Assembly (NCBI RefSeq): GCF_022539665.2
Contig: NC_081334.1
Coordinates: 3,038,001 to 3,102,000, forward strand
Direction of reading: 5' to 3'
DNA length: 64,000 nucleotides
Source of the DNA: Daphnia carinata
Taxonomy: Eukaryota
Made by a program: the position numbers and the translations under genes. The notes under the pieces were generated by a model. The model saw only the letters and a list, made by a program, of their open reading frames with translations. It was not told the origin of the DNA and did no database searches. The first letter of the stretch is position 1, and each line of letters starts with the position of its first letter. This document shows positions 1,738 through 53,300 of this stretch, piece after piece.

Positions 1738-2040
1738 ATGAAAACAACTGTAAGACTTTTAGTCTGATTATTTTTCGTAATTTGTTACCATACTTCACTT
1801 TTAATTCTCTGTTTGCAGTTTCTCATGGTTTGTGCAGTTTTGTTTTGCCTCTTGTTGCTGTCCTCTCCCCAACCTGCAATGAGCAAGCGTTGTAAAAAGA
1901 TAAAAAGTGGAGACACTTGCTGGGCCACTGCTCAGTCCTGTGGCATCAGCTTGGATCAGCTCTACAAAGTAAATCCATCCTTGCAAGGCGGCAGAAAATG
2001 CAATTATTTGCAGATCGGGCAAACCCTCTGTTGTGACTAG
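1738..2040 (+). CDS. Small secreted single-LysM protein (exons 1738-1749, 1819-2040)
   Basis: ATG AAA ACA ACT|gtaag...ttgcag| leads into a hydrophobic signal peptide (FLMVCAVLFCLLLLSS), then KSGDTCWATAQSCGISLDQLYKVNPSLQGGRKCNYLQIGQTLCC, a Cys-containing LysM motif. Confidence 0.88.
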
Positions 2041-2859
2041 TTGTTAAGCTCAGCAGTTGGTATCTTCTCCGAAAATGATAAATATTTGCTAAAGAATTAC
2101 ATACGTGTTGGTTATATGGCATATTAGTTTAGAGTTAATTAACTACGAATTGCTTTGCTGCTACAAGTGATTTCCCATGTGTTTACATTACACATACGTC
2201 ATTACATCAAATACAATATGTCATGTTCTACACTACAGAATCTTTTTTGTTCTAAAATCCATTTTTATAGCATTGGCATACGGTCCATATATATGTCGTC
2301 ATACGGTATATATATGAGTGTCAGTATTTTTTGGTATCGACGAGGGTCCATTTTGATAAGCATCCATAAACCGTATATGGGGAGACCTACGAACAACCTA
2401 CGTTCAAATAATCGATCTTTAACATAGATGTATAAATGTGTGTGTGTGTTTTTTTTCTTCTGCCATTTAAGCCTCTTTATAGTCGGCTTCTCTCTTCATC
2501 TTCTTCCTTGATGATGTCCGAAGTGATCTTGCGTAATCCGATGAATTGAAGAATCTTGCGAGTCTTGAATGACGTATTGGAGGGGTGGGTGGGAGGGGAG
2601 GGTGGTGGGGGGAGAGCGAAGAGGGTCACGGCGGTATCCGGATGATTACAAAGCGTGGGTGATAACCACTGTGCCAAGACCGCACATTCAAATCAAATTT
2701 TGCTTTGAGTGTCGCCAGTTTAAATAGGTAGCTTATAGGTAAAATGCGTAGTAGAAATATGTCGATGTGTTACAGTTCGCGGCTGCCATGCTGAATTCAC
2801 AGGTTCGATTCTTTATTCTTTAATTTTTTTTTTGCTTTTGGATTTTGAATTAATTTAAA

Positions 2860-4690
2860 AAAAAAACTCTTTCAACTTAAATAAAAATAACAATAAAATG
2901 CCGTAAATGTTGGAAGTTGGTAGATATCCTCCAAAATTCTGAGGGGAATAAGATTAAGAAAATTGCAAAATGGCCGTCGGTTGTCTCGCGTAGTGATCAC
3001 ATGTCTGGCAGACGAACATTGGGAACATTGGAGTGTTGCTAATGTCGAGTTCTAAGGTTTTTATTTCCCTTGCAATTACAATTTTGACTTCCCAATTTCA
3101 TAGTTACTGCATGCTTGACATCTCTATAAAATGTTCTTTATTGCGATTTATTTAATGCTGTTTCAATTTGAATCGGGCTTAGCCCACGGAAAGGCTGCGT
3201 TCTAATACCTGGATTGCCAGAGATTGTCAACCGACCCAAAGCCACATATGATCTGTTCCCAACCGAGCTACATCATTCACACGAGGAGAGAACACATTTC
3301 CAGGTCAGTTGTATTTCTTTATCTTGTTTTATTTGCATTTCGTAAATATGCTAAATTTCTTTTTCAGATTTTGATTTTACCATTGTCTTCATCCCATGTC
3401 ATTTTCTGTTAAAAAGTTTAGAATCCTATTCTAGTTTACACAGTTCATTTTAACATGCCAATGTGTTGTACCATATTGTACTTAACCAGAGTATTGGCAT
3501 ATGTATTTGTGAATTCCACATAAGCCATCAGTTCTAAAATTGCTGGCATTATTCGGAATCATCTCACAATGGAAATGTCACCCTGTTTGCTAAGTACTTT
3601 GTTGTTAATACTTCAACTGATACCATTTTTCTGTACATTTAATTTCCCTATTATAATGGCCTCTAATGGCATGGTTTTGAGTAGTCTGAATATTGTGTAT
3701 TACAAGAATATTAAGTTACCCATATAAAAATAGCTAAATGCAAACACCAATGTCTTTCTATGCTTTAGCCTTTGTTGTAGCAGTAATGACCTGACAATGG
3801 ATCATAAAGATGGTCTCCATGGTAGGAAACCGCATAGACCACCATTTGCTGGGGAACGAGGATCCGCTATCGGCACGGTTTTCATAAAATTGCAAAATGG
3901 CCGTCGGTTGTCTCGCGTAGTGATCACGTGTCTGGCAGACGAACATTGGGAACATTGGAGTGTTGCTGCTGTCGACTTCTAAGTTGTTTATTTCTCATGT
4001 AATTACAATTTTGACTTCCAAATTTCATAGTTACTGCGTGCTCGAAATCTTTATAAAATGTTCTTTATTGGGATTTATTTAATGCTGTTTCAATTTGAAT
4101 CGGCCTTAGCCCACAGAAAGGCTGCGTTCTAATACCTGGATTGTCAACCGACCCAAAGCCACATGTGATCTGTTCCTAACCGAGCTACATTATTCCCACG
4201 AGCAGAGAACACATTTCCAGGTCAGTTGTATTTCTTTTTCTTCTTCTACTTGCATTTCACAAGTATGCTAAATTTCGTTTTCAGATTTTTATCTTACCAT
4301 TATCTTCATCCAATGTCATTTTCTGTTAAAAAGTTTAGAATCCTTTTCTAGTTTACACAGTTCATTTTAACATGCCAATGTGTTGTGCCAAATTGTACTT
4401 AACCAGAGTATTGGCATATGTGTTTGTGAATACCACATAAGCCATCAATTCTAAACTTGCTGGCATTATTTGGAATCATCTCACAACAGAAACGTCACCC
4501 CCCCTAAGTACTTTGTTGTTAATCTTCAACTGATACCATTTTACTGTATATTTAATTTCCCTATTATAATGGCCTGTAATGACATGATTTCGAGTAGTCT
4601 GAATATTGTGTATTTTAAGAATATTAAGTTACACATATAAAAACTAAATGCAAACACCAACAACAAACACTAAATGCAATGTCTTTCTAG
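2860..4690. repeat. About 1 kb unit in two tandem copies (about 2860-3890 and 3886-4690), with a third copy at about 9390-10180
   Basis: Shared strings such as ttgcaaaatggccgtcggttgtctc (near 2962, 3890, 9497) and gaaaggctgcgttctaatac (near 3189, 4116, 9722). Confidence 0.9.
3764..3890 (-). pseudogene. 3' fragment of the secreted PAN/Apple gene
   Basis: Closely similar to 10182-10300 (ttagcctttgttgtagcagtaatgacctgacaatgga...gctatcggcacggttttcat) but truncated where the next repeat copy begins. Confidence 0.8.
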
Positions 4691-4692
4691 CT

Positions 4693-4950
4693 TTAGCCTT
4701 TGTTGTAGCAGTAATGACCTGACAATGGATCATACAGATGGTCTCCATGGAAGGTAACCGCATACAACACCATTTGCTCGGGAAATACGAAGCGATAACG
4801 GCGCTTTTTTCATATAACAAATTCCATGATTATAACTAAAATGATTACAATTCGAATTTTCTATGCAGATACGACCACAGTGTTCGATTGCCAATGTCGA
4901 TACGTTGATTCTCCAATGTTCGAAACCAGGAAAATCGAGGCAATCAATAC
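4693..4950 (-). pseudogene. Degenerate copy of the secreted PAN/Apple gene
   Basis: Alignable to 10182-10430, with indels around 4880-4930 and no signal-peptide region. Confidence 0.75.
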
Positions 4951-5984
4951 CATTCTAGAATTTTGCACTGGTCTATATTTAACGAATTCATAGTTAGGGT
5001 CGTTCATCACATGAACATATTTTTCTTTTAGTTTACTCCAGTGTGTTTGATTTGTAGTGGTCCCAATCCATCCGTGCTGCTTTTTATACCAATGCTCACC
5101 TCAGCGTTTTCAGTTTAGCTGGTGGGATTTAGTCGATTTCTATGGACAGGGGATGTGCAAGCAAGCATTAAGAAGTTTTTTAAATCTTTTTTGGCTTAGG
5201 GGCAAAACCGGTATGGGAGTTTTTTTGTTTTTTTTGTTTTTTTTACAAATGAACTTTAGGTTTTTCATTTTGCGCCACAGGAGTGGTCTATATTAAATAA
5301 AGAGGAAACATGTTTTAGGTAAATCAGACTACGATTTCCAAAATCACGAAGCTACTTCTTCTGAATATTTGAGTTTTCGTTAGGTTTTCCTTATTTTAAT
5401 ATGGTAGTAGATCAAATACCGAGTTTTGACCAAAAAGCCAATCAATTGAAAAGAGATTTCATGGCAGTTTAGGAAATCCCTAATTTTCTTTTGTTTCCTT
5501 GATCTGATATTGTTGGCTAGAGATTTCTCTGTAGGTTGACCTCGGGTGAATCACGTCAGATTGTTGGTTTGTCCCCTTTTGAGGGGCGTATTTTCCTAAT
5601 TGGTCGATGAAATTTTGTGATTGTACCTTTTCAAATACGAAAGGCGAAACTTCACAGAGATAGGCCGGGGATTTCAAAAATCCTTCACCTTGCACTCTCG
5701 GAGTTGATTCTTTAAAAGCGAGTTCAATAACCAGTTTCGAACAGAAAATCTGTTTTACAGTGACCAAATTGATCGTTGAACTGATAGATTTTCGTTTGTT
5801 TTTATGGATACGGATTTTCCAAGCACGAACAAAGAAAATGGGCAGTTTTTCCGAAAGAGATGCGCGGTTTTTTTGCGTAAATTGTGTCCCCAATTTCCTT
5901 TTTGGAGCAAGTTTTGGCACACTAGTTTTGCCAGATCAAATATCGAGTTTTGAACATATTTTTTTTTAATGTCTTTTACATGTT

Positions 5985-6092
5985 CAAGGTAAACATATTC
6001 AACAATTAAGCTAGCACACTTAAAGTTATTTTCTATGCTATTCTATCCAGATGATATCCACAATGCCTTTGAAAGCATGTTTTGCAGTTTTG
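5985..6092 (+). pseudogene. 5' remnant of the PAN-expansin gene
   Basis: aaggtaaacatattcaac...ctatccagATGATATCCACAATGCCTTTGAAAGCATGTTTTGCAGTTTTG matches 8081-8196 and 11472-11587, then breaks off. Confidence 0.75.
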
Positions 6093-6527
6093 AAAAATCA
6101 ATTTTTTCTAAATCAATTGAAAAGAGATTTAATGACAGTTGAGGAAATGCCTAATTTTCTTTTGTTTCCTTGATCTGATATTGTTGACTAGGGATTTCCA
6201 AGTAGATTGACCTCGGGTGAATCACGTCAGTTTGTTGGTTCGTCCCCTTTTGTTTCGTTTTCCAACAGTCTGTTTTTTAAACGATCTAACGTTTTCAAGT
6301 ACGTAAAAAGCAGAATTTCATAGAACTAGGCTGAGATTTCAAAGATCATTCCTCTTATACTATTAAAGTTGACTTTTTTTTAAAAGGAGTTCATGGTCAG
6401 TTTCGAAAAGATAAACAGTACTACAGTGACCTGTAATGACGTGGTTTTGAATGCCTTGAATGATGTGTATTATATGAACATGTACGCCAAAAATGACTTA
6501 AAGTAACGCCAGTATCTTTTTATAGCT

Positions 6528-6887
6528 TTAGCCTTTGTGGTAACAGTTGTGCCCTGACACTGGATCGTACAGATGATGACATGTTAAAAAACCGCATACC
6601 CCACCGTTAGCCGGTTGACGAGGAGTCCATATCGGTACGTTTTTCATATAACAAATTCGATTGTGATGACTAAAATGATTACAATTTGAATTCTCGATGC
6701 AGATACGACCACAGTCTTCTCCAGCGCTAGGTCGATTGCCAATGTCGTAACCAGGAAAATCGCAATTGAACAGCCATTTGACACCGCCTTCTCCTGTGTT
6801 CCAGTCTTCCCAGATTGCTCCCACCAGGCACGGTGATAGAATAGCAAGTAAAAGAGGTATGCACAACAACACCATCCTAGACGTCAT
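6528..6887 (-). CDS. Secreted single PAN/Apple-domain protein, 119 aa
   Basis: Signal peptide MTSRMVLLCIPLLLAILSPCLVGA followed by WLFNCDFPGYDIG...EDCGRICIENSNCNHFSHHNRICYMK...VCG, a PAN/Apple cysteine pattern. Paralog at 10182-10541. Confidence 0.8.
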   Translation of the reverse strand: MTSRMVLLCIPLLLAILSPCLVGAIWEDWNTGEGGVKWLFNCDFPGYDIGNRPSAGEDCGRICIENSNCNHFSHHNRICYMKNVPIWTPRQPANGGVCGFLTCHHLYDPVSGHNCYHKG

Positions 6888-8154
6888 GTTGCTAAGTGAT
6901 CCATGTTTAAACGAAATCTTGGTTAGGCTTGTGTATTGCATGAACGTTATCTTACGCATCAAATTTAGCTGTTACTTAAGTAAAGGGATTACTCGAGTGA
7001 TCAACAATATGCGGCCGATGTTTGACTCGTAGTGGCTGGAGAAGTGATGCGGTGAAAGTAAGCCATCCTTGCTGCTTTATAGATTATACCAATTGTCAAC
7101 ACATTTAACTCAAGAGGGGTGTATTTTCCTAATTGGACGATGAACTTTTGTGATTGTACCTTTTCAAATACGAAAGGCGGAACTTTACAGAAATAGGCCG
7201 GAGATTTCAAAAATCCTTCATCTTGCACTAGCGAAATTGATTCCTTAAAAGCGAGTTCAAGAACCAGTTTCGAACAGAAAATCTGTTTTATAGTGACCAA
7301 ACTGATCGTTAAACTGATAGAATTTTCGTCTGTTTTTATGGATGCGGAATTTCCAAGCACGAACAAAGAAGTTATGCACAGTTTTTCCGATAGAGATGAG
7401 CGGATTTTTTTGCGGAAATTGTTGCTCCAATTTCCATTTTGGAACAAGTTTTGGCACACACACTAGAGTGTTGTTTTAAGATAAAGAAGAATCGTGTATT
7501 ATGCAAATCTGATGGGGATTTCCTAAACCACGAATTCTACTTGTTCTTAATATTTATGTTTCACCTGAAGTTTTTCCTTATTCTGTGTGGCCCTAGCTAA
7601 AGGTTTTGCCAGATAAATCAACAACCAATGAAACGTTTCAATAACAGTTTGGGCAACGCGTTCTACTGCAGTATATTTTTTTAAATGTCTTTTGCATGTT
7701 CTGTTAGTGTTGGCTGGGGATTTCCGAACAAGTTGACCTGTAGCGAGTGACGTCTGTTCGTTGGTTTATCCACTTTTCGTTTTGTTTCCAACGACTTGCT
7801 TACTCGCATAAACGTTTCAACGTAAACTATTTCAAGTACGGAGGGTGGATTTTCCCCAGAGTAGATTAACGATTTCGTAGATCATTCAACGTATACTATT
7901 GAAGTAGGCTATTTCAAGGAAAAAACAAATAATGACATTGTATACGTACAGGGCTAATGGCAACGTGGATTCGACATCCGTTGAAGACTTGTATAAAAAG
8001 GGGGTGCTCAACCATTTTAAGAACATAGCTTCTTCTGCCACTGGGAGAAAATCTTGGAACAGAGTTTCAGTTGATTTTTAAAGGTAAACGTATTCAACCA
8101 TTTAGCTAGCACATTTAAAGTTTATTCTCTATGATATTTACTATTACTATCCAG

Positions 8155-8847
8155 ATGATATCGACGGTGCCTTTGAAAGCATGTTTTGCAGTTTTGTTTG
8201 CCGTGATGTCGATCATTACGGATCCTGTCGGTGCTGAATGGGACACTGGTGACGGTGGAGTCCATTGGCACTTTGATTGTGACTTTAGCGGCTACGATAT
8301 ATGCAAACAAAAGATTGCGGGAGAACAATGTGGTAGACTCTGCATCAACACACCAGGCTGCAATCATTTTAGTCATTTCGAAGGAGTCTGTTATTTGAAA
8401 AATGCGCCGATGGATACTGCCCGTCAGTACAAAGCCGGCTGCGTTTGTGGTTATATTCCAGGTACAAATTTTCCCTCTTTTTTTATCAAGTTCCATAATC
8501 CTAATCAATCCTGTCATGTTTTAAGGAAGCGGTGGTGGAAGCGGAGGAGTCGAGGGAACTTTCTGGGCAGAACAATCGGATGCTGGCGGTTGTCAAATGC
8601 CGCAAGAGACGACGCGTACTATGCAATTCTTGGCGTTGTTAACAGTGGTGGAAGGATCAGTTCATCGGCTGTAGCTGCTGGAGTAGCTGGTCGTCGGAAC
8701 AACGATGGCTGGTTTGAATTCAATGGTTCCGGATCACCACGTTTCACGCCAGATGCTCAAGTTGCCTTCAGTTATGAAGATGGATCGTCGTCTTCTTTCG
8801 CGATTCGCAATTGTCTCAATGGAGGACAAGTGAAAATTTTCCAATGA
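8155..8847 (+). pseudogene. Internally deleted PAN-expansin paralog (PAN exon 8155-8461 intact; exon 2 from 8526 lacks about 300 bp)
   Basis: Compared with 11546-12550, the sequence jumps from ATGCCGCAA to GAGACG and also lacks a further 4 nt. After normal splicing the frame shifts and stops near 8672. Confidence 0.75.
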
Positions 8848-10181
8848 GCTTTTCATTTGTATAATGAACTCAGTTAATGTATTAAACGTAATCGTATTCT
8901 TATCGATTTTGTTTCAGTGTTACTCGAAGCAAATTTAGGTGGTAGTCGTCAACTATAATATACACTACAGTTATTACTTGATTGACGAATTGCTTTGCTG
9001 CTAGGAGTGAACTCAATGGATTTACCATTACCATACTTGGTTCCGTTTGGTCATGTTATGTTATGGATCAAAATCATTTTTGTCCTAAAATCCAATTTTA
9101 TAGCATTGGTGTTGGTGTTTTCATGTATAGGTGTTATACCCTTGTACGCCCTACGGTGTTAGACACGGTAAGGAACCAGCAAAAACTTATTGGTATCGAA
9201 GAGTCACATATCCCGATGATTAGCTGCCTGCATCCATGAACCTAATGGCCATGGGGAGACTTATCAACAACCTACGAAGAGCTACGATTACCTCTTTTCT
9301 ACCTCAGTTTGTGGGTCGATCGTTAACATATGTAGTGAACGGTACCACTACTATTTTTTTTTTTTTGTCTTTTGGATTTTTAATTAATTTTTAAAAATTA
9401 CTCGTCCAACTTAGATAAAAATTACAATAAAATGCCGTAACTGTTGAAAGTCGGTAGATATCCTCCTAAATTTTGAGGGGAGGAAGAGTAAGAAAGTTGC
9501 AAAATGGCCGTCGGTTGTCTCCCGTAGTGATCACGTGGCTGGCAGACGAACATGGGAACATTGGAGTGTTGCTGATGTCGACTTCTAAGGTTTTTATTTC
9601 TCTTGTAATTACAATTTTGACTTCCAAATTTCATAGTTACTGCATGCTCGACATCTTTATAAAATGTTCTTTATTGTGATTTATTGAATGATGTTTCAAT
9701 TTGAATCGGTCTTAGCCCACGGAAAGGCTGCGTTCTAATACTTGGATACTGGATTGTCAGAGATTGTCAACCGACTCAAAGCCACATGTGATCTATTCGT
9801 AACCGAGCTACACTATTCCCACGAGCTGAGAACACATTTCCAGGTCAGTTGTATTTCTTTTTCTTGTTTTATTTGCATTTCACAAGTATGCAAAATTTCA
9901 TTTTCAAATTTTTATTCGACCATTGTCTTCATCCCATGTCATTTTCCGTTAAAAAGTTTAGAATCCTTTTCTACTTTACATATTTCTTTTTAACAGGCCA
10001 GTGTATTTTGCTAAATTATACTTAACTAGAGTATTGGCTTATGTGTTTTTGAATTTTAATTTCCTTATTATAATGGCCCATAATGATATGGTTTTGAATA
10101 GTCAGAATGTTGTGTATTATAAGATTACTAGGTTACACATATAAAAATAGCTAAATGTAAACACCAACGTCTTTCTATGCT

Positions 10182-10541
10182 TTAGCCTTTTTGTTGGCAG
10201 TAATGACCTGACAATGGATGGTACAGATGGTGACATGGAAGGAAACCGCATACACCACCATTTGCTGGGGAACGAGGAACCGCTATCGGTACGGTTTTCA
10301 TGTAACAAATTCCATTATGATGACTAAAATGATTACAATTTGAATTTTCTATGCAGATACGACCACAGTGTTCTCCTGCGATACGTCGGTTGCCAATGTC
10401 GTAACCAGGAAAATCGCAATTGAACCGCCATTTGACACCGCCATATCCCGTGTTCCAGTCTTCCCAGGCTGCTTCGACCAGGTACGGTGATAGAATAGCA
10501 AGTAACAGAGGCAAGGATAACAATATCATTCTAGACGTCAT
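10182..10541 (-). CDS. Secreted single PAN/Apple-domain protein, 119 aa
   Basis: Intact ORF with a signal peptide and WRFNCDFPGYDIG...HCGRICIENSNCNHFSHHNGICYMK. Paralog of 6528-6887. Confidence 0.82.
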   Translation of the reverse strand: MTSRMILLSLPLLLAILSPYLVEAAWEDWNTGYGGVKWRFNCDFPGYDIGNRRIAGEHCGRICIENSNCNHFSHHNGICYMKTVPIAVPRSPANGGVCGFLPCHHLYHPLSGHYCQQKG

Positions 10542-11545
10542 TTTGCTCTGATCTATATTTAAACGAAATCGTATTTAGGGTCGTTCATCACATAAACGTA
10601 TTTTTTCTAATTTAGTTTACTTACCCAAAAGGGATAACTTAGGAAATCAACAACAAGCGATTGATGTTTGCCTTGTAGTGGTCGGAAAAATAATTGTTTA
10701 AAACCAATCGATCCGTGCTGCTTTTTATACTAATGCTCACCTCAGCGTTTTCAGTTTAGCTGATAGAATTTAGCCGATTTGTCTTGCGTAAATTGTGTCC
10801 CCAATTTCCTTTTTGGAACAATTTGTTGCACACACACACTCGAGTGCTGTTTTGAGATAAAGAAGAATCGTGTTTTATGCAAATTTGACGGATTTCAAAA
10901 ACCACGAATACTACTTATTCTCAACATTTTGTGTTTGATCTGGGGTTTTTCCTTATTCTGTGTGGTCCTAGCTGAGGGTTTTGCCAGATAAATCACCAAA
11001 CAAGGAAAGGTTTCAATGACAGTTTGTGCAACCCCTTCTACTGGAACATAATTTTTTAAATGTCTTGTGCATGTTCTGGTAGCGTTCGCTGGGGATTTCC
11101 CAACAAGTTGACCTGGAACAAGGGACGCCTGTTTGTTGGTTTATCCACTTTTCGTTTTGTCTTCCAACGACTTGCGTACACGTTAAACGTTCTAACTATT
11201 TCAAGTACGGAGGGGTTTCCCAACAATAGATAAACGATTTCGTAGATCATTCACCTTATTCCATTGCAGTAGGCTATTTCAAAACGGATTCAATAACCAG
11301 TTTTGAAAAAAAAAAACAAATAATGACATTGTGTACGTACAGGGCTAATGCCATCGTGGATTCGACATCCGTTGAAGACTTGTATAAAAAGGGGTGATCA
11401 ACCATTTTAAGAACATAGCTTATTCTGCCACTGGGAGAAAATCTTGGAACAGAGTTTCAGTTAATTTTTTAAAGGTAAACATATTTAACCGTTTAGCTAG
11501 TACGCTTAAAGTTTATTTTCTATGATATTTACTATTACTATACAG

Positions 11546-12550
11546 ATGATATCGACGGTGTCTTTGAAAGCATATTTTGAAGTTTTATTTGCCGTGATGT
11601 CGATCATTACGGATCCTTTCATTACGGATCCTTTCGCTGCGCAATGGAACACTGGTGACGGTGGAGTCCAATGGCAATTTGATTGTGACTTTAACGGCTT
11701 TGATATTGGTAAACAAGAGATTGCGGGAGATCAATGTGGTAGACTCTGCATCAACACACCAGGCTGCAATCATTTTAGTCATTTCGAAGGAGTCTGTTAT
11801 TTGAAAAATGCACCGTTGGGTACTACCCGTCAATACAAAGCCGGTTGCGTTTGTGGTTACATTCCAGGTACAAATTTTCCCACTTTTTTTTTATCAAATT
11901 CCATAATGCTATTCAATCCTGTCATGTTTTAAGGAAGTGGAGGAATCAAGGGAACCTTCTGGGCCGAGAAATCCGATGCTGGTGGTTGTCAAATGCCGCA
12001 AGGTGATTACGCCGTCACCGACGCTCTAGCTCTTGGACAATCGGACGCACTTGGAAACTTGAAATGGCGACAAGGACTCTGTGGACAAGTTTTGCGAGTC
12101 GATTGCGGCAACGGGCCGGTAGATGCCGTCGTGGCCAGCACTTGTAACTTGAACAGCAATTCATGCGGGGTGGACCTGATCGGCAAGACGTGGAGACAAG
12201 CTACTGGCAACAAACCGCCCGGCGTCGTCGATTGTCGCGTTTCCCTAACCAACCGGAATCCAATCAGAGGCAGCGATGCACTGTGCTATTTCCGACCCAA
12301 TTCGGAGACGAACAACGCGTACTATGCAATCCTTGGCGTTGTTAACACTGGTGGAAGGATCAGTTCATCGGCTGTAGCTGCTGGAGTAGCTGGTCGTCGG
12401 AACAACGATGGCTGGTTTGAATTCAATGGTTCGGGATCACCACGTTTCACGCCGGACGCTCAAGTTGTTTTTAGTTATGAAGATGGATCGTCTTCTTCTT
12501 TCACGCTTCGCAATTGTCGCAATGGAGGACAAGTGAAAATTTTCCAATGA
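11546..12550 (+). CDS. Secreted PAN/Apple + expansin-like (DPBB + CBM63-like) fusion, about 312 aa (exons 11546-11867, 11934-12550)
   Basis: A phase-1 GT-AG intron joins the two ORFs in frame: ...CGYIP G SGGIKGTFWAEKSDAGGCQMPQ...ALALGQ...GLCGQVLRVDCGNGPVDAVVASTC...CGVDL...YYAILGVVN...NNDGWF. These motifs parallel expansin domain 1 (T-F/Y, GGC, CG, DL) and the domain 2 aromatics. Confidence 0.75.
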
Positions 12551-49496: not shown

Positions 49497-50125
49497 TTAA
49501 TGTGTAGCTAAATAAAAATACAAAAGTAAATACTGTAAAGTCGTTTTTATTGTCCCTCCTTCCACCCACATATCCACCACTATTACATACATTTCAATAT
49601 ACAGTACACAGCATACAATACATACACAAATACACTTAAACTAACACGTTGGCTGCCACGCCACCTATCTACAATCGCTACTGTCGCTATCAAAGGGATA
49701 GCGACCAAGGGGGCCGGGTGGGCCGGGCTGAAACGACGACGAGACCTTTACGGGAATGCACACCCCAGGTCTACATCGCCGTCTCGTTCAAGGGATTCCC
49801 TATGGTGCATTGCCTTTGGGCCATTCGGCCAATCTTGGGCAGTGGCGCTGCTCCACCCCATGGCAGATAAACCATGGAGCAGAACAGCGCGGCCCGTCCC
49901 TGTCAAGCTACAAAAAAAAGGGGATCAAAGTGGGTGGCAGCCAACGTGTTAATTTGCAAAACATAATACAACATAAAACAAAACACAACCATACCACGAA
50001 GACCAGGCGACCACGAGGTGACGAAGGGGCGATAGGGGAGGCGATGACGGCGTGACCACGAGGCGAAGGCGGGGCGAGGCGAAGACGGCGCGACCACGAG
50101 GCGAAGAAGGGGCGACGGGCTAGGT

Positions 50126-50313
50126 GAAGACGGGACGACGGGCGAGGCGAAGACGGGACGACGGGCGAGGCGAAGACGGGACGACGGGCGAGGCGAAGAC
50201 GGGACGACGGGCGAGGCGAAGACGGGACGACGGGCGAGGCGAAGACGGGACGACGGGCGAGGCGAAGACGGGACGACGGGCGAGGCGAAGACGGGACGAC
50301 GGGCGAGGCGAAG
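50126..50313. repeat. GC-rich 23-bp minisatellite (GGGCGAGGCGAAGACGGGACGAC), about 8 copies with degenerate flanking units
   Basis: Directly visible, and the ORF translations repeat every 23 aa (69 nt, three units). Confidence 0.95.
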
Positions 50314-53300
50314 ATGGCGCGACCACGAGGCGAAGACGGGCCATACAACAACATTTTGCACGATGTTCCACGATGATCTCCTACATGCCACTGCTTATTT
50401 ACTATTCGGCATTCCATCACTTTTTTTTTCATTTTGCTGTCATGGCGCTACCTAAATAACAAACAACGATATTACAATATTACATTTGAACGGGCAAATG
50501 GAAACTTACGTTTACATGGCTTGAGAGAATTAATACTTAGAAACTGGAATCTTGAAGGTCTTTTTACATGGGACAAAAAAGGAAAATGCCCTAGCTCTAA
50601 ACGGTAGAAGTAAAAGTAAACTGTTAATTTATGGGAAAGAAAACTTTGTTGGTGAAACTGTAACAGAGATGGCTATTTGACTTACAGCTGTTAACCGAAG
50701 ACGAAAAAGATTGTGGGGCCAGGAATTACGAAGAAGAAAGTAAAGACTTGGCAGTCCTATGAAGGGATATTAAATGTAAAGAAAAGTCATATTATACTAA
50801 GAAAGAAACTTAAAATACCACAGGAAAATGGTTTTTGGGTCCATGTCTATGTGTGTTGGTTGGTAGGTAGGAATGGCAGGAAGATTGCTGAAACGGTGGT
50901 GAGTTTTGTTGGCCACACGACACAGAGGTATAAAACACGTTTGTCAGATCCGAACTGACAGTTGATGAAGGGATAAAGTGCTGCAAAACCAGACGAAGAT
51001 ATTCTAACGATAACACTTATGTCACTGTCACAGCCTCTATACTTTGTAAATAAAGTTTCATGAGTTATCCCTTGAAAGTAGAATCATACTAATTGGATTC
51101 TAGTATCAAAATGTAAGCCTTATACCTTTAAATGAGTAATTGTATCACATGATTGAATGCAAAAGCCAGAGTATGCTACCAGGCTTTGTGTTTGACAGCT
51201 GGCATAGCTGATCTCGTTAAACAAGAAATAATCCATTTCATGTGGTTGACTTCCAAAACACAATCAAAACACTTAATAGTCGGTAGCACACCATTTTTAG
51301 TATCTTCTGTTGTATATGGCAATCCGTTCACCTCCTCCCACCCCAAAAAATATCGTTTTCTTTCTGTTTTACTGCTATTGCCATCTACTGGTCAGATTTC
51401 TAGTTAATTCTCTACATACAGTCGCCGAATATTTCTTGGGGGGGGGGGGGGGGGGGGGGTAAAACGTATAACACGCCGCGCAATAAAACACAACCAAATT
51501 TTTGGAAGGGCGCTAGCGATAGTTTTTTTGTTAACAACCTAAGCAAAAGCGAATCAAAAAGGAATTAGGGTACAACTGTTTATTCAAAAACCAAGATATT
51601 CCCATGAAAATACATGGTTGGGTTTGATAATTTCAAAAGGGTGTCGGAATTCAACGGAGACAGTCAGTCAGATGTTTCGTATTCTCTTATTGTCGTTTAC
51701 GTCCGATCCGTGGCTACTTACAATTATCAGCAACTCAACAATGTGTATGCACATTGAAAATCAGGATCAAAACAAAATCGGGATTATAACCAACAGGCGG
51801 TTAACCATTTCTACGTTCACCCACAAATGCCTTACACTCCTCTGGTTGTTGGGTTGGCTAGTGGCACCTTAGAAGCGAGAAATCGACTGTAAACAAACGA
51901 AGGTAATACAATTAATGTTATTCCTTATGGAAATTTCTCACGCATTGCTTTTTTAATGATAAATTTTTTAATTTTGCCATTTCGTGATTTTCGAAAGATT
52001 TGAATCTTTAAAACTTTTAATATATAATGGCAAAATACCACAATATTGTAATCAATTAGCTTTCTATGGAGTTACGAACCAAACTTTATAGAAGCAATGA
52101 GGTAAGAATAATTTTTCTGCAAATAACATGCCAGACCATTAGCCAGAGAATCATTATCGAAAGGCAAGGTTTCCAAAGAATCTAAGTGTGGGGAAACTGA
52201 TCGGTAAAATATTTGCTGTTTTTACTTATTCTACTATGTTCAAAAAGCTCATATTTTACCGAAGGAGATCAAAATTATACCAGTTTCTGCGTGTTTCTTT
52301 AGCAGGCTTTCTAGGATCTTTTGATAAATGCAAAGAACTTCTGATTATTAGCGAGGGATAATGTTGTTCGGAAAACCAGAAGACGACTTTAGCACCAACA
52401 TTTGTTTTCATGTTTTTTTTTTTAGCAGATAATAAATTTTCTTTGCGGCGGTTTTTAATGTGATACCTTGCCCAAAAGCTCTGGCGAGAGAAATAAATGA
52501 CAAGATTGAAACAACACATAGTCTACAGAAGAACGGTAATCGAGTAAATCCATCGTTCAGTCTTACCGTGAACGCGAACCATCGGCGCGAACAACAACCT
52601 TGATGCAGAGGAGACGCCATAACAAACATGAAAATACAATGTCAACAGATGCAATCTAGAATCAATATCTGGGATTACTTAGGTGAAGAAGCTTCTGGAA
52701 TGCTGATGGATAAAACAACATATTACCTTTTAATAGAAAATTCCCTTAGATCTAGGGAAAAATCGAAACATCTGCCAGGTCTTATGAACCGACTCCGTTG
52801 TGGCTGCTGGTGCATTTTTTATAGAAGCTTCAATATTGTTAACATGTTGTAAGTGCTACAAATACTAGCTGTAATTGTTCCACTATAATGGAAGTCAATA
52901 GACATTAAGTAACCTGGACAAAAAAAAAATTCATATCAGAACAAAACAATCTATTACTTGGATAGATAGACCAAAACAAAGATGGATGTCTAATGTCAAT
53001 ACTACAATTTTAATCTTTCGAAGACAACAAAATTTGTCCTCTCAAAATTTATCAAATATTAGTATCATCTCTTGATTTGCTAGTCAGGAATCACAGATTA
53101 CAGTGGACAATTGGAAATTGAAATATGTAATACATACCTACAAGGTGAGTAGAAATCCCGATGATATTCCTGATCCATGCTGATCCATACACGAAACTTC
53201 TCATGTTTCTAAAAAAAAAACTAAAATCGTGTCAAAACTTTAAATTGTTTTGCATATCTTTATGTTTTCTCTCATTAGCGTACCTTGAAAACCGTTGAAA

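What the first reader, a model, noticed from the sequence alone, without database searches (positions are those of the whole stretch)
11546..12550. PAN/Apple-expansin fusion protein hidden by an intron
Seen: two separate ORFs join exactly in frame across a 66-nt intron that lies at the domain boundary, followed by a short Gly/Ser linker. Exon 2 has GTFW...GGC, CGQVLRV and GVDL, then YYAILGVVN and DGWF. Established: two-domain expansins occur in plants, some bacteria, fungi, oomycetes and amoebozoa, and expansin-like proteins are rare in animals. Inference: an HGT-derived expansin-like gene that gained a PAN targeting domain by exon shuffling from the neighbouring PAN family.
Basis: partly seen in the sequence, partly recalled or inferred. 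Interest (0 to 1): 0.78.

Follow-up and report, generated by a model that had tools for sequence, protein, structure and literature searches.

The report
Water-flea expansin-like protein with PAN domain
A water flea (Daphnia) gene encodes a predicted secreted protein with the predicted fold of plant and microbial wall-loosening expansins plus a likely sugar-binding PAN domain; it belongs to an unnamed family also found in gall midges, a rotifer, chytrid fungi and protists, and likely helps the animal attack the cell walls of its food.

Summary
ATG 11546, a 66-nt phase-1 GT..AG intron (11868-11933) and stop 12550 give a 312-aa protein: signal-like N-terminus, PAN/Apple domain, Gly/Ser linker, 200-aa C-terminal part. 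Contigs from 4 of 5 runs of a close relative cross the intron, and Daphnia database models already join the exons. The C-terminal part has no Pfam match, but its AlphaFold model (pLDDT 97) hits only expansins in the top 12 (BsEXLX1 E 3e-9, TM 0.68). The key Asp and two of three binding aromatics align; the Asp71 equivalent is Ser. It belongs to a sequence-distinct eukaryotic family (Daphnia, gall midges, Adineta, a nematode, chytrids, rhizarians, Pirum); no prokaryotic member was found. Horizontal origin is likely but unproven. Likely role: wall-polysaccharide binding and loosening during feeding; a slow glycanase or antimicrobial role remains open.

The parts
11475..11545 (+). Likely 5'-UTR intron ending just before the ATG
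   Evidence: GT at 11475 and AG at 11544-11545; relative's contigs skip this region in 4 of 4 runs, with diverged letters, so the donor is inferred
11546..11641 (+). Signal-peptide-like N-terminus, with a 15-nt tandem duplication near 11604
   Evidence: Hydrophobic stretch, 11-residue Kyte-Doolittle mean up to 2.4; no signal-peptide predictor was run; relative lacks the 15 nt
11642..11867 (+). PAN/Apple domain (rest of coding exon 1)
   Evidence: PF14295/PF00024 E 0.0022, below cut-off; model of ortholog P0001 matches factor XI apple domains, SML-2 lectin and a fungal copper oxidase
11868..11933 (+). 66-nt phase-1 GT..AG intron
11934..11944 (+). Short Gly/Ser linker, about 12 nt shorter than in the paralog and the relative
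11945..12253 (+). Expansin domain 1 (predicted double-psi beta-barrel). Asp at 12173-12175 (D81 of the exon-2 frame) aligns with the expansin key Asp; second conserved Asp at 11975-11977 (D15). Boundary approximate
12254..12550 (+). Expansin domain 2 (predicted CBM63-like beta-sandwich) and stop. Y130/Y131 at 12320-12325 align with the Trp-Trp pair; W161 at 12413-12415 is a conserved aromatic. Boundary approximate
8155..8847 (+). Tandem paralog of the fusion gene with about 303+4 nt deleted inside exon 2 and a frameshift; PAN identical to Daphnia carinata LOC130695010 (151 aa)
10182..10541 (-). Single-PAN gene (signal-like N-terminus, PAN, short tail), head to head with the fusion gene; 55% identical PAN
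6528..6887 (-). Second single-PAN gene, head to head with the paralog
4730..4950 (-). Third, degenerate single-PAN copy (first PAN motif lost from the frame); a further fragment at 3768-3888

Best explanation
This is a spliced Daphnia gene for a predicted secreted PAN + expansin-like protein that likely binds and loosens the cell-wall polysaccharides of ingested algae or fungi, so that the animal's own glycanases reach them. Shown: one gene with the intron at the domain boundary, amid ordinary animal genes, conserved across Daphnia. Predicted with high confidence: a double-psi beta-barrel plus CBM63-like sandwich. Inferred mechanism: Y130, Y131 and probably W161 stack on a beta-glycan chain, D81 with T8 distorts it as Asp82 does in BsEXLX1, and the PAN domain holds the protein on a second glycan. 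Inferred origin: a eukaryotic microbial gene family taken up by arthropod ancestors; the PAN fusion is older than the genus Daphnia or arose repeatedly, and the neighbouring single-PAN genes are more likely copies of its first coding exon than its donors. Odds: expansin-like fold about 0.95; acts on a wall polysaccharide about 0.8; non-lytic loosening of food walls in the gut about 0.5.
For: Splicing. Fold: pLDDT 97, pTM 0.92; all 12 Foldseek hits at E<=0.001 are expansins. Remote sequence signal: NF041144 expansin_EXLX1 in 63 of 104 members, best E 1e-5; profile alignment to a Clavibacter expansin domain spans both domains (E 0.00075, probability 25%); the Plasmodiophora member is named 'Expansin-like EG45' by its source. 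Conservation in alignment A2: D81 92 of 102 filled rows, T8 61 of 68, aromatic at 130 in 90 of 102, at 131 in 86 of 102, at 161 in 95 of 96. A member from Leptophrys carries CBM1 in the place of PAN (E 3e-12), pointing to a cellulose or chitin target. PAN is paired with wall-binding modules in oomycete CBEL, which binds Gal/GalNAc (PMC3532174, passages). D. pulex secretes cellulases, mannanase and glucanases and eats green algae (PMC2678976, passages). Host context: CNOT11, kinesin, BBS2, Plus-3 and Ig/kinase genes in the window.
Against: No activity, binding or tissue data; contigs cannot give expression site or level. The Asp71 equivalent is Ser (75 of 101) and the Tyr157 equivalent aligns to D159, not an aromatic, in a low-probability alignment. 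Foldseek rmsd to expansins is 4-5.6 A, so domain packing may differ. Below every curated cut-off (Pfam 0 hits, NF041144 17 bits against 100). A second conserved acid (D15, acidic in 60 of 69) allows catalysis. A Romanomermis member (recalled: an insect-parasitic nematode) does not fit algal digestion. Neighbours are LysM and Hydrolase_2 genes, which hint at peptidoglycan or chitin.
Confidence: 0.5

Rival explanations
1. The barrel domain is a slow endo-glycanase (GH45-like), with D81 as acid and D15 or E12 as base, so the protein cuts xylan, glucan or chitosan rather than only loosening walls.
For: D15 is acidic in 60 of 69 rows and E12 in 38 of 62, in the loop after the Thr-aromatic strand. 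A fungal expansin-related protein cleaves xylan using the conserved Asp plus a second Asp three residues after the conserved Thr (PMC12846793, abstract and passages).
Against: D15 lies seven residues after the Thr, not three. The Asp-Asp distance could not be measured (no coordinates). The top fold matches are expansins; no entry titled GH45 is among the rows shown.
Confidence: 0.2
2. The protein acts in defence or self-remodelling: it binds or weakens peptidoglycan, chitin or beta-glucan of bacteria, fungi and oomycetes, or the animal's own chitin, within a cluster of secreted wall-directed genes.
For: Next gene is a Hydrolase_2 cell-wall hydrolase (E 1e-19) and three LysM-like genes lie within 10 kb. 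BsEXLX1 binds peptidoglycan (PMC5072189, passages) and microbial expansins bind chitin to some extent (PMC11040781, passages).
Against: Neighbourhood in an animal genome need not mean shared function. CBM1 fusion in the family and the aligned aromatic pair favour a crystalline beta-glycan.
Confidence: 0.2
3. Origin rival: the family is old in eukaryotes and was inherited vertically, with loss in most animals, rather than transferred horizontally.
For: Members in chytrids, the ichthyosporean Pirum and three animal phyla; named animals as one clade are not rejected (p 0.19) and arthropods group together (92/98, not starred). No prokaryotic or viral member found.
Against: Daphnia is as close to the chytrid Powellomyces (59%) as to a gall midge (60%). 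Adineta and Romanomermis sit on a separate long branch (100/100). Named animal holders are few. Recalled, not tested: bdelloids and gall midges are rich in transferred genes.
Confidence: 0.3
4. One reading: a PAN-less expansin gene in the Daphnia lineage captured the exon of a neighbouring single-PAN gene at the phase-1 intron.
For: Neighbours and Daphnia fused PANs form one clade (99/97). The PAN and expansin trees differ in shape, and the expansin data reject the PAN-tree grouping (p 0.001). PAN presence changes 10 times on the 74-row tree (24 with, 31 without, 19 unknown left out). PAN-less paralogs exist in D. magna and D. sinensis.
Against: The PAN data do not reject co-inheritance with the expansin domain (p 0.11 and 0.09). 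The closest expansin relatives already carry PAN without the boundary intron. The singles nest with magna-type fused PANs inside the fused set (90/90). No intron separates signal peptide and PAN.
Confidence: 0.2

Closest known systems
Microbial expansins EXLX (BsEXLX1 3D30, Clavibacter 4JCW, Xanthomonas 9MS4, Talaromyces 7WVR)
   Same: Predicted two-domain fold in the same order and size (TM 0.63-0.68); key Asp and the first two domain-2 aromatics align.
   Different: 15-19% identity; below NF041144, PF03330 and PF01357 cut-offs; eight Cys; Asp71 equivalent is Ser; third aromatic not aligned; extra conserved acid D15; N-terminal PAN instead of CBM1, CBM2 or GH5; animal host.
Plant expansins (EXPB1 2HCZ, Phl p 1, GhEXLA1)
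   Same: Same fold class, Cys-rich domain 1 (E 3e-6 to 6e-5).
   Different: 10-13% identity, lower TM (0.54-0.58); no His-Phe-Asp motif (motif recalled).
Animal expansin-related proteins: nematode expansin-like effectors, Bemisia EG45 protein
   Same: Expansin-related genes in animals, ascribed to horizontal transfer (10.1101/637728 section 5; PMC11800479 passages).
   Different: Nematode proteins have reversed domain order and the whitefly protein is barrel-only, per those papers; this one has canonical order plus PAN and a free-living grazer as host.
PAN/Apple modules on wall-directed proteins (oomycete CBEL; Colletotrichum copper oxidase 6RYX)
   Same: Apple fold appended to a secreted carbohydrate-directed protein.
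   Different: Partner is an expansin-like module; no PAN-expansin protein appeared in the listing or passages.
GtEXPN_133317 and GH45 glucanases
   Same: Barrel with conserved Asp and a second N-terminal acid.
   Different: Single-domain; second Asp at different spacing; activity untested here.

Membership tests
Expansin superfamily (EXLX) | N-terminal double-psi beta-barrel followed by CBM63-like beta-sandwich | tested here: met
   Predicted model; 12 of 12 hits at E<=0.001 are expansins aligned over about 200 columns; barrel-only (kiwellin, barwin) and domain-2-only (Phl p 2) hits follow
Expansin superfamily (EXLX) | Conserved Asp equivalent to BsEXLX1 Asp82, with Thr12 partner | tested here: met
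   D81 aligns with Clavibacter D78; 92 of 102 rows. T8 61 of 68; its equivalence to Thr12 is inferred from position
Expansin superfamily (EXLX) | Asp71 equivalent in domain 1 | tested here: not met
   Ser in 75 of 101 rows, Asp in 9
Expansin superfamily (EXLX) | Aromatic triad on domain 2 (W125, W126, Y157) | tested here: inconclusive
   Y130/Y131 align with the Trp-Trp pair; the third aligns to D159, with conserved aromatic W161 two residues on; coplanarity not measurable
Expansin superfamily (EXLX) | Passes curated profile cut-offs (PF03330, PF01357, NF041144) | tested here: not met
   No Pfam expansin hit in 104 members at E<=0.1; NF041144 17.4 bits against 100; control Clavibacter domain passes both Pfam models
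Expansin superfamily (EXLX) | Non-lytic wall creep or cellulose weakening | not testable with these tools
   Needs a bench assay
PAN/Apple domain | Apple fold with conserved Cys pattern | tested here: met
   Ortholog model matches factor XI apple and SML-2 (rmsd 1.9 A over 66 columns); Pfam weak here, above cut-off in P0064
PAN/Apple domain | Carbohydrate or protein ligand binding | not testable with these tools
   Needs a glycan array
GH45 or catalytic expansin-related proteins | Acid plus a second acid or Asn about 10 A away | tested here: inconclusive
   D81 and conserved D15/E12 present; distance not measured
Exon-shuffled module | Domain exon flanked by same-phase introns | tested here: not met
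   Phase-1 intron on the 3' side only; the upstream intron is in the 5' UTR
Horizontally transferred gene | Nests in a donor clade, host monophyly rejected, embedded in host DNA | tested here: inconclusive
   Embedded with introns among animal genes; AU p 0.19; donor unresolved

The most novel reading that the evidence does not exclude
An unnamed branch of the expansin superfamily, missed by Pfam, runs through chytrids, protists and several animals; water fleas and gall midges use it, often PAN-tagged, as their own wall-loosening or wall-cutting protein, and its second conserved Asp makes it a natural two-domain catalytic expansin bridging expansins and GH45.
Probability: 0.25. Interest if true: 0.78.

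Novelty: new variant of a known kind. Interest (0 to 1): 0.58.

Why it matters
A 2019 survey found few animal expansins and left open whether they are real genes or contamination (10.1101/637728, section 5). Here a canonical-order expansin-like gene has introns, animal neighbours, orthologs across Daphnia and spliced contigs, so it is a real animal gene. The family is invisible to Pfam and gives a testable handle on how grazers open algal walls, how gall midges may act on plant walls, and whether expansins can be catalytic. The PAN-expansin architecture and this family did not turn up in 10 literature searches; most results were seen as listings only, subscription journals are not covered, and Supplemental Table 3 of the 2019 preprint (animal expansins) could not be seen.

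Tried and rejected
No whole genome is held, so genome-wide copy number was not checked. Single-sequence PDB searches gave nothing significant. VIA-align and the ESM Atlas did not complete, so the fold rests on Foldseek alone. Prokaryote scans: 0 relatives among 30 and 8 pattern matches; these need exact short motifs and are weak evidence of absence. Plasmids: 3 weak hits, E>=0.03. Viral contigs: 1 of 20 matches, 23 residues, E 4e-4, rejected as noise. BFVD: 0 hits at E<=0.001, barrel-only matches. The longer-protein PAN search returned only 4 of 9 candidates, so other Daphnia PAN partners were not sampled. No run from the window's own organism was found (best word share 0.05); contig depth was not used for expression. 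Contamination rejected (introns, synteny, orthologs). Separate transcription of the two ORFs rejected (contigs of 883-1014 nt span both). A PAN swap in Daphnia was considered but not established. P0211 and P0210 were dropped from the second PAN tree (long branch; identical to the paralog). PAN trees rest on about 80 columns. No complex prediction was run, as no binding between proteins is claimed. Three look-ups in earlier scan findings returned nothing.

Full report
Observation. The gene starts at ATG 11546, has a GT..AG intron at 11868-11933 (66 nt, phase 1) and stops at 12550, giving 312 aa. Frame alone does not single this intron out: 25 donor-acceptor pairs keep the frame open. Contigs of a relative about 87-90% identical join 11867 to 11933 in 3 of 4 runs, and all 4 runs show the joined form, two of them with exon 1 mapped on the paralog. 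In all, 4 of 5 distinct runs from 4 studies; these are assembled contigs and only X17 is on record as RNA. Single contigs of 883 and 1014 nt span both exons. Metagenome contig L002 carries a 77-nt phase-1 intron at the same site and the near-identical L003 lacks it. Database models of D. magna, D. sinensis and D. pulex already join the exons, without a functional name beyond 'Apple domain-containing'.

Host and locus. The best named relative is D. magna (91%), and the paralog's PAN at 8155 is identical to a D. carinata protein, so the window is very likely Daphnia. CNOT11, kinesin, BBS2, Plus-3 and Ig/kinase genes lie in the window. The locus is a tandem array: single-PAN genes on the minus strand (10182, 6528, a degenerate copy at 4730) face fusion genes on the plus strand (11546 intact; 8155 with about 307 nt deleted from exon 2 and a frameshift). 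A Hydrolase_2 gene and LysM-like genes flank it.

Fold. Exon 2 has no Pfam match, nor does any of 104 aligned members match a Pfam expansin model. The AlphaFold model from that alignment has pLDDT 97 and pTM 0.92. All 12 Foldseek matches at E<=0.001 are expansins, led by BsEXLX1 (E 3e-9, TM 0.68, 16% identity, rmsd 5.2 A); kiwellins, barwin, loosenin and Phl p 2 follow as single-domain matches. The full-length model of the D. magna ortholog adds apple-domain matches. NF041144 expansin_EXLX1 is hit weakly by 63 of 104 members; the window protein scores 17 bits against a cut-off of 100.

Residues (exon-2 numbering; add 107 for full length). Profile alignments to Clavibacter expansin place D81 on D78, the BsEXLX1 Asp82 equivalent, and Y130/Y131 on the Trp-Trp pair (E about 0.001, probability 22-25%). 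PMC5072189 (passages) names Asp82, Thr14, Asp71 and Tyr73 as important in domain 1, with Thr12 assisting, and W125, W126, Y157 in domain 2. In the family D81 is kept in 92 of 102 rows, positions 130 and 131 are aromatic in 90 and 86 of 102, and 161 in 95 of 96. Against strict membership, the Asp71 equivalent is Ser in 75 of 101 and the Tyr157 equivalent aligns to D159. A second acid, D15, is D/E in 60 of 69 rows. PMC12846793 (abstract and passages) shows that a fungal expansin-related protein with such a second Asp cleaves xylan, so catalysis is a live rival. It works like an expansin by fold; it is not a member of a curated expansin family by score.

Distribution. The search found 55 relatives among 669 candidates and 123 cluster representatives at E<=0.001 among 1.84 billion. 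I looked up 30 proteins for names; with the names, every organism named is a eukaryote: Daphnia, Contarinia, Sitodiplosis, Adineta vaga, Romanomermis, Cyprideis (partial), five chytrid genera, Plasmodiophora (named 'Expansin-like EG45'), Leptophrys and Pirum, plus MMETSP transcripts. Most hits are unnamed environmental proteins. Motif scans of prokaryote genomes found none, nor did plasmid, viral-contig or viral-fold searches give a credible hit. N-terminal partners vary: PAN, CBM1, somatomedin B, linkers or none.

Origin of the fusion. In the 74-row expansin tree the Daphnia fusions sit in a starred 19-row clade, mostly PAN-bearing, next to the gall-midge clade. Three of those relatives (L004-L006) have PAN fused without a boundary intron but with a phase-2 intron inside PAN; L007 has a phase-1 boundary intron. 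PAN presence changes at least 10 times (24 with, 31 without, 19 unknown left out; partial PANs labelled by eye). In the PAN tree the two neighbouring singles group with the Daphnia fused PANs (99/97) and nest with the magna type (90/90); a fused-only clade is not rejected (p 0.22). PAN data do not reject co-inheritance with the expansin domain (p 0.11, 0.09), although the expansin data reject the PAN grouping (p 0.001). Signal peptide and PAN share one exon. So the fusion predates this locus or is recurrent, and capture from the neighbours is possible but not favoured.

Horizontal transfer. Patchy animal occurrence and 59% identity to a chytrid protein favour it. With 23 named rows, arthropods group together (92/98), Adineta and Romanomermis lie apart, and animal monophyly is not rejected (p 0.19). 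I put transfer from a eukaryotic microbe at about 0.7, donor unknown.

Mechanism. Shown: gene structure, host context, conservation. Predicted: fold and residue equivalence. Inferred: secretion, binding of a beta-glycan on the domain-2 aromatics, distortion by D81, anchoring by PAN (precedent: CBEL, PMC3532174 passages), and action in the gut beside the cellulases, mannanase and glucanases that D. pulex secretes (PMC2678976 passages). Nothing here shows tissue or substrate. The Hydrolase_2 and LysM neighbours and the peptidoglycan binding of BsEXLX1 keep a defence role open.

Novelty. The 2019 survey (10.1101/637728, section 5 and passages) calls animal expansins few and unconfirmed and discusses CBM1, CBM2 and GH5 fusions; 'apple' and 'rotifer' do not occur in its main text; its supplementary animal table was not available. 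The whitefly protein is barrel-only (PMC11800479 passages). PMC5294986, PMC11040781 and PMC13357843 (passages) do not describe this family in the passages seen. A search for six Daphnia and Contarinia identifiers returned 0 papers. Verdict: real; a new variant of a known kind; interest 0.58. The intron itself is ordinary; the value lies in the unrecognised expansin-like family in animals.

Noticed in passing
window 13058-13791 (+): Two-exon gene with signal-like N-terminus, acidic linker and a Hydrolase_2 cell-wall hydrolase domain (E 1e-19), a family recalled as bacterial and phage; a likely transferred antibacterial enzyme. One contig of the relative covers both exons (X24).
   Followed up: partly
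window 1768-2040, 16439-16759, 19346-19687 (+): Three small secreted-looking LysM-like genes; the first passes Pfam LysM (E 9e-10), the last two lie in a 1.9-kb duplication.
   Followed up: partly
window 8155-8847 (+): Paralog with an internal deletion and frameshift; annotated as a 151-aa protein in D. carinata; the 3' part of exon 2 is still 84% identical at protein level.
   Followed up: yes
window 2800-12700: Array of 0.3-1.3 kb duplications (76-92% identical) with head-to-head pairs of single-PAN and fusion genes, possibly sharing a two-way promoter; one relative contig of 1026 nt covers the intergenic stretch (X22).
   Followed up: no
P0019, P0020, P0024: Plant-feeding gall midges carry the family with PAN (Contarinia) and without (Sitodiplosis); role on plant walls untested and not found in search.
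   Followed up: partly
P0167: Cyprideis torosa model with a partial family domain inside a long CUB-like protein (CUB by eye); may be a merged gene model.
   Followed up: no
window 49900-50450: Short tandem repeat of about 63 nt with open frames on both strands.
   Followed up: no
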